A DNA stretch of 24,814 nt. It comes from Candidatus Jordarchaeum sp. LHC_1308 (GTDB taxonomy: Archaea > Asgardarchaeota > Jordiarchaeia > Jordiarchaeales > Freyrarchaeaceae). This document shows, in pieces, positions 7,991 through 8,151 of the stretch. Location: positions 1 to 24,814 of the forward strand of contig JAHLWX010000025.1 in the NCBI GenBank assembly GCA_019057675.1, in the 5' to 3' direction. The notes beneath the pieces were generated by a model. It was not told the DNA's origin. It ran no database searches and saw only the letters and a list, made by a program, of their open reading frames with translations. Within the stretch, counting starts at the first letter, position 1. Each line of letters begins with the position of its first letter. The translations under genes and the position numbers were made by a program.

Positions 7991-8151
7991 TCGCTGGGCG
8001 CCATGACGTGAAAGTCAAGCCCACATGCGATTCGGCGAGTACTGCTGTGCGGGAGCCAGCGGGAAAACCGAATACTGGCGCTACGGCGCCGGTCATAGCA
8101 TGTGGGGTCTACCCGTTCTCATGCCGAACACGGATTCATGGCGTCCAGCGA
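7991..8151 (+). rRNA. circularly permuted 5S rRNA gene; precursor includes a 16-bp leader/trailer stem; predicted mature circle is 8013-8134
   Basis: 8013-8081 (AGUCAAGCCCACAUGCGAUUCGGCGAGUACUGCUGUGCGGGAGCCAGCGGGAAAACCGAAUACUGGCGC) corresponds to the 3' part of archaeal 5S. 8086-8134 (GCGCCGGUCAUAGCAUGUGGGGUCUACCCGUUCUCAUGCCGAACACGGA) corresponds to the 5' part. All five helices form: I 8074-8081/8086-8093, II 8098-8106/8020-8028, III 8113-8116/8130-8133, V 8030-8035/8068-8073, IV 8042-8047/8057-8062. Confidence 0.85.

What the first reader, a model, noticed from the sequence alone, without database searches (positions are those of the whole stretch)
7991..8151. Circularly permuted 5S rRNA gene
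Read on the + strand, the locus contains every conserved 5S element, but the order is rotated. First comes AAGUCAAGCC (3' side of loop B), then the helix II 3' strand, helix V, loop E (AGUA/GAA), helix IV/loop D, and the helix I 3' strand (8013-8081). Only after that come the helix I 5' strand, loop A GGUCAUAGC, the helix II 5' strand, helix III, and the 13-nt loop C UCUCAUGCCGAAC (8086-8134). In a normal 5S gene the second block precedes the first. The gene has its own BRE/TATA at 7955-7969 and an oligo-T terminator at 8156-8167, so it looks expressed rather than being a rearrangement scar. Known precedents are permuted SRP RNA in Thermoproteus, permuted tRNA genes, and a permuted 23S in Pyrococcus. 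I do not know of a natural permuted 5S rRNA gene.
Basis: partly seen in the sequence, partly recalled or inferred. Interest (0 to 1): 0.93.

Follow-up and report, generated by a model that had tools for sequence, protein, structure and literature searches.

The report
Permuted, circularised 5S rRNA gene
This Asgard archaeon encodes its 5S ribosomal RNA with the two halves in swapped order, flanked by the signal that archaeal tRNA-splicing enzymes cut and re-join, so the normal 5S is most likely restored as a closed RNA circle; eleven relatives do the same, and standard annotation misses all of them.

Summary
On the + strand, 8013-8134 holds a complete 5S rRNA with the 3' half placed before the 5' half. 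Helix I is closed by a C(UACG)G tetraloop. Rfam sees only two sub-threshold halves (19.4 and 18.6 bits). A covariance model built from canonical archaeal 5S rotated in silico scores the locus 84 bits (E 2e-18) over its full length.

Leader 7991-8006 pairs with trailer 8136-8151. The next 4 bp (CGUG/CACG) and two 3-nt bulges form a bulge-helix-bulge motif. Cutting at 8012|8013 and 8134|8135 and joining the ends gives ...CCGAACACGGA|AGUCAAGCC, the canonical loop B, in a 122-nt circle.

I found eleven further distinct permuted 5S genes in Freya/Jordarchaeia-, Helarchaeota- and Lokiarchaeota-like Asgard contigs.
- 20 of 31 core pairs and 11 of 12 motif pairs covary.
- Three motif registers all restore the canonical junction.
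- One member also carries a textbook 32-nt splicing-type intron.

The mechanism matches the permuted SRP RNA of Thermoproteus. I found no report of it for 5S rRNA.

Not shown: circularity, ribosome incorporation, and absence of a co-linear 5S copy.

The parts
7955..7969 (+). BRE/TATA promoter GAAAAGCTTTATATT. The TATA lies about 31 nt upstream of the leader helix.
   Evidence: Sequence. GGAAAAGCTTTATATT is conserved at about -51 from the circle start in window, L141, L231 and L232; L233 and L234 carry only the TTTATATT core, at -49 and -46. Promoter function is inferred.
7991..8006 (+). Leader: 5' strand of the outer processing helix (UCGCUGGGCGCCAUGA). It pairs with 8136-8151 over 16 bp.
   Evidence: The helix covaries in relatives: L232 CCACGG/CCGUGG, L233 CUGGGCACCGUGG/CCACGGUGCCCAG, L234 UGGCGUCGCUG/CAGCGGCGCCA.
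8007..8010 (+). Central 4-bp helix H of the bulge-helix-bulge motif, 5' strand (CGUG). It pairs with 8129-8132.
   Evidence: H is paired in 97.5% of cells across 12 sequences, with three of four pairs covarying.
8011..8013 (+). 5' three-nucleotide bulge AAA. The predicted endonuclease cut is 8012|8013.
   Evidence: The geometry is H followed by a bulge on each strand. The rule of cutting between bulge nucleotides 2 and 3 is established knowledge of archaeal splicing endonuclease. Here it is the only rule that gives a canonical junction in all 12 genes and in the L234 intron.
8013..8081 (+). 5S rRNA 3' half: loop B 3' side, helix II 3' strand, helix V, loop E, helix IV with loop D, helix I 3' strand.
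   Evidence: Rfam half-hit, R1 model positions 1 to about 68, covariation, coordinates.
8082..8085 (+). UACG tetraloop, closed by C8081-G8086, that caps helix I where a normal 5S has its two ends.
   Evidence: All 12 genes have a short cap of about 4 nt: UACG in window, L141, L231 and L232; UUCG in L139, L174, L181, L206 and L178; UUUG in L228; CACG in L233; CUCG in L234, where the loop is ambiguous (4 to 6 nt).
8086..8134 (+). 5S rRNA 5' half: helix I 5' strand, loop A, helix II 5' strand, loop B 5' side, helix III and loop C.
   Evidence: Rfam half-hit, R1 model positions about 73-120, coordinates.
8129..8132 (+). Helix H, 3' strand (CACG). It overlaps the helix III 3' strand (8130-8133), so H and helix III exclude each other.
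   Evidence: The conformer with H formed lies only 2.0 kcal/mol above the minimum free energy structure.
8133..8135 (+). 3' three-nucleotide bulge GAU. The predicted cut is 8134|8135.
   Evidence: Joining A8134 to A8013 gives CCGAACACGGA|AGUCAAGCC, identical in length and motif to canonical CCGAAC-NNGG-AAGUYAAGCC.
8136..8151 (+). Trailer: 3' strand of the outer processing helix (UCAUGGCGUCCAGCGA).
8156..8167 (+). Two T4 runs (TTTTCTCGTTTT), a likely archaeal transcription terminator.
   Evidence: Sequence. T- or pyrimidine-rich tracts follow the trailer in the relatives. Terminator function is inferred.

Best explanation
This is the functional 5S rRNA gene of an uncultured Asgard archaeon related to Freyarchaeota/Jordarchaeia, encoded in circularly permuted order.

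Proposed pathway:
1. Transcription starts about 25 nt downstream of the TATA box at 7955-7969 and ends at the T runs at 8156-8167.
2. The leader (7991-8006) pairs with the trailer (8136-8151).
3. Next to this helix, CGUG (8007-8010) pairs with CACG (8129-8132). Each strand is followed by a 3-nt bulge, which makes a bulge-helix-bulge substrate.
4. The tRNA-splicing endonuclease EndA cuts at 8012|8013 and at 8134|8135.
5. The ligase RtcB joins A8134 to A8013.

The junction rebuilds the 3' side of loop B (GGA|AGUCAAGCC). Helix III, which competes with helix H in the precursor, is then free to form. The product is a 122-nt covalently closed 5S rRNA in which helix I is capped by a UACG tetraloop.

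I think the circle is the mature form that enters the ribosome.

Shown here: the permuted order, the 5S fold under selection, the conserved and covarying bulge-helix-bulge motif, and exact restoration of the canonical junction.

Inferred: transcription, cleavage by EndA, ligation by RtcB, persistence as a circle, ribosome incorporation, and being the only 5S in the genome.
For: 1. The locus is a 5S in permuted order.
- Rfam gives half-hits in swapped order.
- The rotated-canonical model R1 scores 84.0 bits, E 1.9e-18, full length, at exactly 8013-8134.

2. It is a family.
- I found 11 further distinct permuted 5S genes scoring 51.6-93.8 bits with R1: L141, L231, L232, L233, L234, L139 (=L050), L174, L181 (=L189), L206, L228 (=L229) and L178.
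- They come from at least 15 independent assemblies.
- The neighbouring proteins are closest to named Freyarchaeota/Jordarchaeales, Helarchaeota and Lokiarchaeota MAG proteins.

3. The fold is under selection.
- On the structure taken from canonical 5S, 96.2% of cells pair and 20 of 31 pairs change on both sides.
- The covariation score is 0.556 against 0.190 for shuffles (0 of 500 reach it). Slid controls pair in 31-44% of cells.
- The capped helix I is 100% paired, with four covarying pairs.

4. The bulge-helix-bulge motif is conserved.
- All 12 genes have a 4-bp H, two 3-nt bulges and an outer helix of 4-16 bp.
- 91.7% of cells pair and 11 of 12 pairs change on both sides. The covariation score is 0.994 against 0.249.

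5. Three registers of H (CACG; ACGG or CCAG; CGGC) all yield the canonical junction and circles of 121-123 nt.

6. L234 carries, in addition, a strict hBHBh' 32-nt intron. Its removal restores helix III exactly. The same enzyme system must therefore act on that pre-5S.

7. The bulge-helix-bulge conformer lies only 2 kcal/mol above the minimum free energy structure.

8. There are precedents.
- The permuted SRP RNA of Thermoproteus is cut by recombinant EndA at such a motif and found as a circle (PMC4731332).
- In E. coli, a permuted 5S with its native ends joined by a 4-nt connector and inserted into 23S rRNA supports growth without any free 5S rRNA (PMC7283268).
Against: - There are no RNA data. 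Nothing here shows transcription, cleavage, the ligated junction, or presence in ribosomes.
- The motif is relaxed. No inner helix h' closes the 5' bulge, so it is of the bulge-helix-loop type. In L233, H has only 3 standard pairs.
- The minimum free energy structure of the window precursor forms helix III rather than H.
- I could not search any whole genome for a co-linear 5S copy (one search was truncated).
- I chose the motif register for each sequence by best pairing, so the statistics lean towards the structure.
- In L228, an extra 32 nt inside the predicted circle is unexplained.
Confidence: 0.7

Rival explanations
1. The circle is only an intermediate. After excision and ligation, a nuclease opens the helix I cap (8082-8085). 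The ribosome then receives an ordinary linear 5S, as happens with permuted tRNA genes.
For: - Permuted tRNA genes of Cyanidioschyzon go through a circular intermediate that is then cut to a linear tRNA (discussed in PMC4267664).
Against: - The cap is a minimal loop of about 4 nt in all 12 genes, and in most it is a stable UNCG-type loop. There is no spacer or recognisable processing motif.
- The Thermoproteus SRP RNA stays circular.
- Circular 23S has been reported within ribosomes (PMC12918454).
Confidence: 0.17
2. The precursor is cut at the two bulges but never ligated. The mature RNA is then a linear, permuted 5S with its ends in loop B, comparable to the permuted mitochondrial 5S of brown algae.
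For: - Brown-algal mitochondrial 5S is permuted in the final product (PMC4267664).
- A nick in loop B would keep all the same nucleotides, so exact restoration of the junction does not by itself prove ligation.
Against: - Cleavage at bulge-helix-bulge motifs in archaea is coupled to RtcB ligation, both for tRNA exons and for excised RNAs.
- The ends would carry a 2',3'-cyclic phosphate and a 5'-OH next to each other.
- Loop B with helix III would be held by only 4-6 bp.
Confidence: 0.06
3. This is a 5S-derived non-ribosomal RNA, or a second specialised 5S. A normal co-linear 5S gene elsewhere in the genome serves the ribosome.
For: I could not scan any complete genome of these lineages (one search was truncated). 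The window and the fetched loci cover only a small part of each genome.
Against: - All universally conserved 5S loop motifs are intact in 12 divergent copies: GGUCAUAG, CCGAAC, GUACUG and GGGAA.
- The five helices covary as in a working 5S.
- No canonical 5S reaches Rfam gathering score in about 127 kb around these genes.
- The authors of closed Heimdallarchaeum genomes could not predict any 5S gene (PMC8813620).
Confidence: 0.06
4. This is an assembly artefact or a decaying rearrangement scar, for example a collapsed tandem 5S repeat.
For: None beyond the unusual order itself.
Against: - Identical sequence appears in three independent assemblies from ENA, JGI and Logan.
- Eleven diverged homologues have compensatory substitutions.
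- The two halves are joined by a 4-nt hairpin loop, not by a spacer.
- The flanks form a covarying processing stem.
- The promoter is conserved within the subfamily.
Confidence: 0.01

Closest known systems
Permuted, circular SRP RNA of Thermoproteus tenax (Plagens et al. 2015, PMC4731332)
   Same: - The gene halves are in swapped order.
- Leader and trailer form a bulge-helix-bulge motif at the junction.
- The tRNA splicing endonuclease, and presumably RtcB, restore a functional RNA as a circle.
- The canonical gene 'could not be found' by standard searches.
   Different: - The RNA is different: SRP RNA, not 5S rRNA.
- The lineage is different: Thermoproteales, not Asgard.
- That case was shown by RNA-seq, northern blot and recombinant enzyme. 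This case is inferred from sequence only.
- This one spans three Asgard lineages rather than one genus.
Circular pre-16S/pre-23S intermediates, circular 23S in ribosomes, and permuted 23S of Pyrococcus/Thermococcus (PMC12918454, PMC7758197, bioRxiv 10.64898/2026.03.23.713588)
   Same: A processing stem with a bulge-helix-bulge motif, excision and circularisation of a ribosomal RNA.
   Different: - Those genes are co-linear. Any permutation arises after transcription.
- These papers state that 5S is not processed this way ('but not 5S rRNAs').
Permuted mitochondrial 5S rRNA of brown algae (Valach et al. 2014, PMC4267664)
   Same: A natural 5S whose helix I is a closed hairpin and whose ends lie elsewhere. 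It escaped standard covariance models.
   Different: - It is organellar.
- The ends lie at the open three-way junction.
- The final RNA stays permuted and linear.
- There is no bulge-helix-bulge motif and no ligation.
Permuted tRNA genes (Cyanidioschyzon merolae; cited)
   Same: The 3' half is encoded before the 5' half. Bulge-helix-bulge-type processing produces a circular intermediate.
   Different: - The product is re-linearised by RNase P and tRNase Z.
- It is a tRNA, not an rRNA.
- It is eukaryotic and nuclear.
Engineered cp5S rRNA in E. coli (Huang et al. 2020, PMC7283268)
   Same: The native 5S ends are joined by a 4-nt connector, and the molecule still works in ribosomes.
   Different: - It is artificial.
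- It is opened in loop C or loop D and inserted into 23S.
- It is not circular.
Low-abundance circular forms of canonical 5S rRNA in Sulfolobus, Halobacterium and Pyrococcus (PMC12558985)
   Same: A circular RNA containing 5S sequence in archaea.
   Different: - They come from co-linear genes.
- The junctions are heterogeneous and lack a bulge-helix-bulge motif.
- They are interpreted as degradation or minor by-products.

Membership tests
5S rRNA (Rfam RF00001) | Three-way junction with helices I-V | tested here: met
   The structure was taken from canonical archaeal 5S (R1). Across 12 permuted genes, 96.2% of cells pair and 20 of 31 pairs change on both sides. The minimum free energy fold of the rotated or circular sequence gives the 5S shape.
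5S rRNA (Rfam RF00001) | Conserved loop motifs: loop A GGUCAUAG, loop C CAUNCCGAAC, loop B AAGUYAAGC, loop E GUACUG/GGGAA | tested here: met
   All motifs are present in the window and aligned to the model consensus. AAGUCAAGC is complete only after the predicted ligation.
5S rRNA (Rfam RF00001) | Co-linear gene that reaches the family's gathering score (38 bits) | tested here: not met
   The window gives 19.4 and 18.6 bits for two halves in swapped order and no hit at gathering score. The same holds for the 10 other loci tested. Canonical archaeal controls score 66-102 bits. The failure is one of gene order, not of content.
5S rRNA (Rfam RF00001) | Component of the large ribosomal subunit | not testable with these tools
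   This needs RNA from purified 50S subunits or a cryo-EM map.
Archaeal permuted RNA genes restored by bulge-helix-bulge splicing (type: Thermoproteus SRP RNA) | 3' part of the RNA encoded upstream of the 5' part in one transcription unit | tested here: met
   There is a single promoter and a single terminator.
Archaeal permuted RNA genes restored by bulge-helix-bulge splicing (type: Thermoproteus SRP RNA) | Leader-trailer helix with a 4-bp helix flanked by 3-nt bulge(s) at the new ends | tested here: met
   The motif is present in 12 of 12 genes, covaries, and is paired in 91.7% of cells. It is relaxed on the inner side because there is no h' helix.
Archaeal permuted RNA genes restored by bulge-helix-bulge splicing (type: Thermoproteus SRP RNA) | Joining the cut ends recreates the canonical RNA sequence | tested here: met
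   The junctions are ACGGA|AGUCAAGCC, ACGGAA|GUCAAGCC, ACGGCAG|UCAAGC and CCAGAA|GUUAAAC. All have canonical length, and the circles are 121-123 nt.
Archaeal permuted RNA genes restored by bulge-helix-bulge splicing (type: Thermoproteus SRP RNA) | Cleavage by EndA and ligation to a circle, demonstrated on RNA | not testable with these tools
   No transcriptome or enzyme data are available here.
Brown-algal mitochondrial permuted 5S | Ends at the junction of the alpha and gamma domains, linear permuted product, organellar | tested here: not met
   Here the ends lie in loop B/helix III, a ligation signal is present, and the context is archaeal.
Archaeal hBHBh' intron (applies to relative L234 only) | Two 3-nt bulges separated by 4 bp and flanked by helices h and h'. 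Splicing restores the mature RNA. | tested here: met
   In L234 352-383, h is GGGAA/UUCUC, H is CUAC/GUAG, the bulges are CCA and AAG, and h' is UA/UA plus GCUGG/CCAGC. It is the only strict hit in the scan, and the spliced product is GGAACUACCC|GUUCUCAUUC.

The most novel reading that the evidence does not exclude
A covalently closed circular 5S rRNA, made from a permuted gene by the tRNA-splicing machinery, is the only 5S rRNA in the ribosomes of several Asgard lineages (Freya/Jordarchaeia, Helarchaeota, Lokiarchaeota). It may be ancestral to a large part of the Asgard archaea. It would also explain why 5S genes 'could not be predicted' in closed Asgard genomes.
Probability: 0.5. Interest if true: 0.93.

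Novelty: new variant of a known kind. Interest (0 to 1): 0.88.

Why it matters
- 5S rRNA is universal, and its gene is regarded as trivially recognisable in archaea, bacteria and nuclei. This is a clade-wide exception in the archaeal group closest to eukaryotes.
- If the product stays circular, it would be the first ribosome with a circular 5S rRNA. It would add a third substrate class, after tRNA/rRNA precursors and SRP RNA, for which the splicing endonuclease and ligase are essential to build a core RNA.
- Standard pipelines (Rfam, RNAmmer, PGAP) miss these genes, so affected MAGs fail the '5S present' quality criterion. Gene callers have also run protein ORFs through the gene (P0245, P0246). 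A permuted covariance model fixes both problems.
- The claim is directly testable in cultured Asgard archaea and in existing metatranscriptomes.

Tried and rejected
- **Thiolase synteny.** Loci around the thiolase neighbour in more distant Freyarchaeia (L004-L010, including the closed genome CP147778.1) hold no 5S. The gene is not syntenic there.
- **Genome-collection scan.** The single scan used a 5'-half pattern meant to catch both canonical and permuted copies. It could not answer whether a co-linear copy exists, although it did give L050 and the reference set.
- **dnaG-linked loci.** Loci next to dnaG in Freyarchaeum deiterrae and a Lokiarchaeia MAG (L227, L230) hold no 5S.
- **MAFFT alignment A1.** It misaligned helix I and the flanks between subfamilies. 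I replaced it with model-based alignments A3-A5.
- **L228 insert.** A search for a bulge-helix-bulge motif that would remove the 32-nt insert found nothing convincing.
- **tRNA control.** I checked an intron-containing tRNA on L206 as an internal control for the cut rule. It fits the geometry, but its H has only 3 of 4 pairs, so it is a weak control (my reading).
- **AT-rich region 14850-16015.** I examined it and found nothing.
- **Literature.** Ten searches found no archaeal permuted or genetically encoded circular 5S. The library lacks most subscription journals.

Full report
**What is at the locus**

Read on the + strand, 8013-8081 carries these 5S elements in order: the 3' side of loop B (AGUCAAG), the helix II 3' strand, helix V, loop E, helix IV with loop D, and the helix I 3' strand. 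A four-base loop, UACG (8082-8085), follows; it is closed by C8081-G8086.

**Is it more than chance, and does the rotated molecule score as 5S?**

- Rfam at gathering threshold finds only a tRNA-Met in the whole window.
- With permissive thresholds, RF00001 gives two adjacent sub-threshold hits in swapped order. One is 8085-8174 at 19.4 bits, whose real match is the 5' half. The other is 7996-8084 at 18.6 bits, the 3' half.
  - I took 19 canonical archaeal 5S genes whose ends Rfam had defined, scoring 66-102 bits.
  - I rotated each at ...CGGN|AGU... and closed helix I with arbitrary tetraloops.
  - I aligned them and built model R1 with 120 positions and 31 base pairs.
- R1 matches the window at exactly 8013-8134, full length, at 84.0 bits, E 1.9e-18.
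- The training genes in their natural order reach only 29-42 bits as half-hits.
- The reference genes were retrieved with a pattern that the window also matches. This inflates the score by a few bits but cannot create the order dependence.

UCGCUGGGCGCCAUGA (7991-8006) pairs over 16 bp with UCAUGGCGUCCAGCGA (8136-8151). Directly inside this helix, CGUG (8007-8010) pairs with CACG (8129-8132). On each strand this 4-bp helix is followed by three unpaired bases, AAA (8011-8013) and GAU (8133-8135). This is the topology of the archaeal bulge-helix-bulge motif.

Archaeal splicing endonuclease cuts between bulge nucleotides 2 and 3 (established knowledge; general description in PMC4731332). Under that rule the excised RNA is 8013-8134, 122 nt. 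Joining its ends gives CCGAACACGGA|AGUCAAGCC. That sequence has the length and motifs of canonical CCGAAC-NNGG-AAGUYAAGCC.

The precursor is very stable: -86.2 kcal/mol, z = -6.6. Helix H overlaps the helix III 3' strand, so the two exclude each other. The conformer with H formed lies only 2.0 kcal/mol above the minimum free energy structure at 37, 60 and 80 °C.

**Source organism**

The window is part of a 58-kb metagenome contig. It was also assembled independently in JGI and Logan data with an identical 5S region. The neighbouring thiolase and a 293-aa hypothetical protein have their closest named relatives in Candidatus Freyarchaeota and Jordarchaeales MAGs. These are Asgard archaea, kingdom Promethearchaeati.

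**A family, not a singleton**

Eleven further distinct permuted 5S genes came from three routes: a metagenome scan with a pattern specific to the permuted order, one lucky hit in the truncated genome scan, and contigs fetched through neighbour proteins.

| Subfamily | Members | Lineage evidence |
|---|---|---|
| A (Freya/Jord-like) | window, L141, L231, L232, L233, L234 | |
| B (Helarchaeota-like) | L139 = L050, L174, L181 = L189, L206, L228 = L229 | DnaG 76-77% identical to Helarchaeota proteins; synteny DUF1512-5S-dnaG-rpS2 |
| C (Lokiarchaeota-like) | L178 | neighbour protein cluster named Lokiarchaeota/Promethearchaeati |

R1 scores these genes 51.6-93.8 bits. Rfam at gathering score finds none of them.

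**Selection on the fold**

The test used the model-based alignment of the 12 genes and a structure derived from canonical 5S, not from these sequences.
- 96.2% of cells form standard pairs.
- 20 of 31 pairs show changes on both sides.
- The covariation score is 0.556 against 0.190 for shuffles (0 of 500 reach it).
- Sliding the partners by 1-3 columns drops pairing to 31-44%.
- The capped helix I is 100% paired, with four covarying pairs.

The alignment is fitted to the model, so these counts lean somewhat towards the structure.

**Selection on the processing motif**

- Each of the 12 genes has the arrangement outer helix, 4-bp H, 3-nt bulge on both strands.
- The outer helices differ completely between lineages yet stay complementary. 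Examples: window CGCCAUGA/UCAUGGCG, L232 CGCCACGG/CCGUGGCG, L234 CGUCGCUG/CAGCGGCG, L181 GGCUGGU/ACUAGCC against L206 GGCUGGU/AUCAGCC.
- I built an artificial mini-alignment of only these segments. There, 91.7% of cells pair, 11 of 12 pairs change on both sides, and the covariation score is 0.994 against 0.249.
- I chose the registers by best pairing, which is a caveat.
- H sits in three different registers relative to helix III: CACG; ACGG or CCAG; CGGC. All three give a junction of canonical length.
- The circles are 121-123 nt in ten genes. The other two are 155 and 153 nt because each has 32 extra nucleotides.

**An independent pointer to the splicing enzyme**

In L234 the 32 extra nucleotides (352-383) interrupt the helix III 5' strand. 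They are flanked by a textbook hBHBh' motif: h GGGAA/UUCUC, H CUAC/GUAG, bulges CCA and AAG, and an inner hairpin. It is the only strict hit in an exhaustive scan. Its removal yields ...GGGGAACUACCC|GUUCUCAUUCCGAAC, matching the window base for base in length. That pre-5S therefore needs the endonuclease and ligase twice.

**Expression signals**

- In subfamily A, GGAAAAGCTTTATATT lies at about -51 from the circle start, roughly 31 nt before the leader helix, in window, L141, L231 and L232. L233 and L234 carry only the TTTATATT core, at -49 and -46.
- In subfamily B, four of the five genes carry TTTTTAAAA at -59/-57, preceded by AAAACC (L181, L206) or ATAAC (L174). L139 has it at -78 with a TTTTATAG box at -59, and L228 at -91.
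- T- or pyrimidine-rich tracts follow the trailers.

**Mature form**

The cap on helix I is a minimal loop of about 4 nt in every gene: UACG, UUCG, UUUG, CACG and (ambiguously) CUCG. There is no spacer that could hold a processing site. I therefore favour a molecule that stays closed, as the Thermoproteus SRP RNA does.

Closing the native ends with 4 nt is compatible with ribosome function in E. coli, where such a permuted 5S inserted into 23S rRNA supports growth without free 5S (PMC7283268). Re-opening at the cap, or cleavage without ligation, cannot be excluded from sequence alone.

**Comparison with the literature**

- I found no paper in the library that describes a permuted or genetically programmed circular 5S in archaea, after ten searches. 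The library lacks most subscription journals.
- Recent work on rRNA circularisation explicitly exempts 5S (PMC12918454).
- The known circular 5S species arise from co-linear genes, have heterogeneous junctions, lack a bulge-helix-bulge motif, and are read as degradation products (PMC12558985).
- The 'permuted' mitochondrial 5S of brown algae is a different arrangement without ligation (PMC4267664).
[quoted passage not shown] A permuted gene would explain that statement. I have not tested that lineage.

**Limits**

- There are no RNA data.
- I made no whole-genome search for a co-linear copy (one search was truncated).
- The motif is relaxed on its inner side.
- The 32-nt insert of L228 is unexplained.
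- Lineage assignments rest on names that depositors gave to the closest homologues.

**Verdict**

This is a conserved, permuted 5S rRNA gene of Asgard archaea with a built-in excision and ligation signal. It is a new variant of a known kind of system and is of high interest.

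Noticed in passing
L234:352-383: A 32-nt intron with a strict hBHBh' motif sits inside the permuted 5S gene of a Freyarchaeota relative and splits the helix III 5' strand. I am not aware of splicing-type introns reported in 5S rRNA genes; that is from memory and was not searched exhaustively.
   Followed up: yes
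L228:7503-7537 (same in L229): A Helarchaeota MAG (GCA_013375455.1) has 32 extra nt between the 5' bulge and the 5S body, which makes the predicted circle 153 nt. The insert contains a 13/14 copy (7524-7537) of the helix V/loop E 5' strand (7555-7568). I found no motif that would remove it.
   Followed up: partly
window 7972-9150; L232:4001-5113: A mechanical ORF of 392 aa, and public gene calls of 367-370 aa (P0245, P0246), run straight through the 5S gene. The real neighbouring gene starts at ATG 8269 (293 aa, no Pfam domain) and has its own conserved promoter-like GGTAACTTTAATATT at 8203-8217.
   Followed up: partly
L050 (contig DATKTP010000169.1): This contig belongs to a MAG labelled Candidatus Deferrimicrobium, a bacterium. 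It carries the permuted archaeal 5S. The identical 5S region lies on metagenome contig L139, whose archaeal DnaG has an identical database entry labelled Deferrimicrobium and is 76-77% identical to Helarchaeota proteins. It is most likely an Asgard contig mis-binned into a bacterial MAG.
   Followed up: partly
L206:6351-6453 and L181:2317-2420: Intron-containing tRNA genes of 103-104 nt were found by Rfam but missed by ARAGORN. The L206 gene lies about 600 nt from the permuted 5S. By my reading it is tRNA-Thr(UGU) with a 30-nt intron at 37/38. L139 and L228 have intron-less tRNA-Thr(UGU) genes.
   Followed up: partly
L228:8226-8939: An ORF with a faint LAGLIDADG_3 Pfam hit, of homing-endonuclease type, lies about 550 nt downstream of the permuted 5S gene, between it and dnaG.
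   Followed up: no
window 14850-16015: A stretch of about 1.1 kb has no ORF of 80 aa or more and low G+C (0.36, against about 0.48 elsewhere). There is no Rfam match and no notable repeats.
   Followed up: partly
window 17130-17204 (-): An intron-less tRNA-Met (CAU) scoring 62.5 bits. It is the only RNA in the window that standard tools report.
   Followed up: yes
L042:4593-4711 (-): The canonical 5S of a Thermoplasmatota MAG has an aberrant 3' end (...GATTACCCCCTTAAGG) in place of a helix I 3' strand. I excluded it from the reference set.
   Followed up: no
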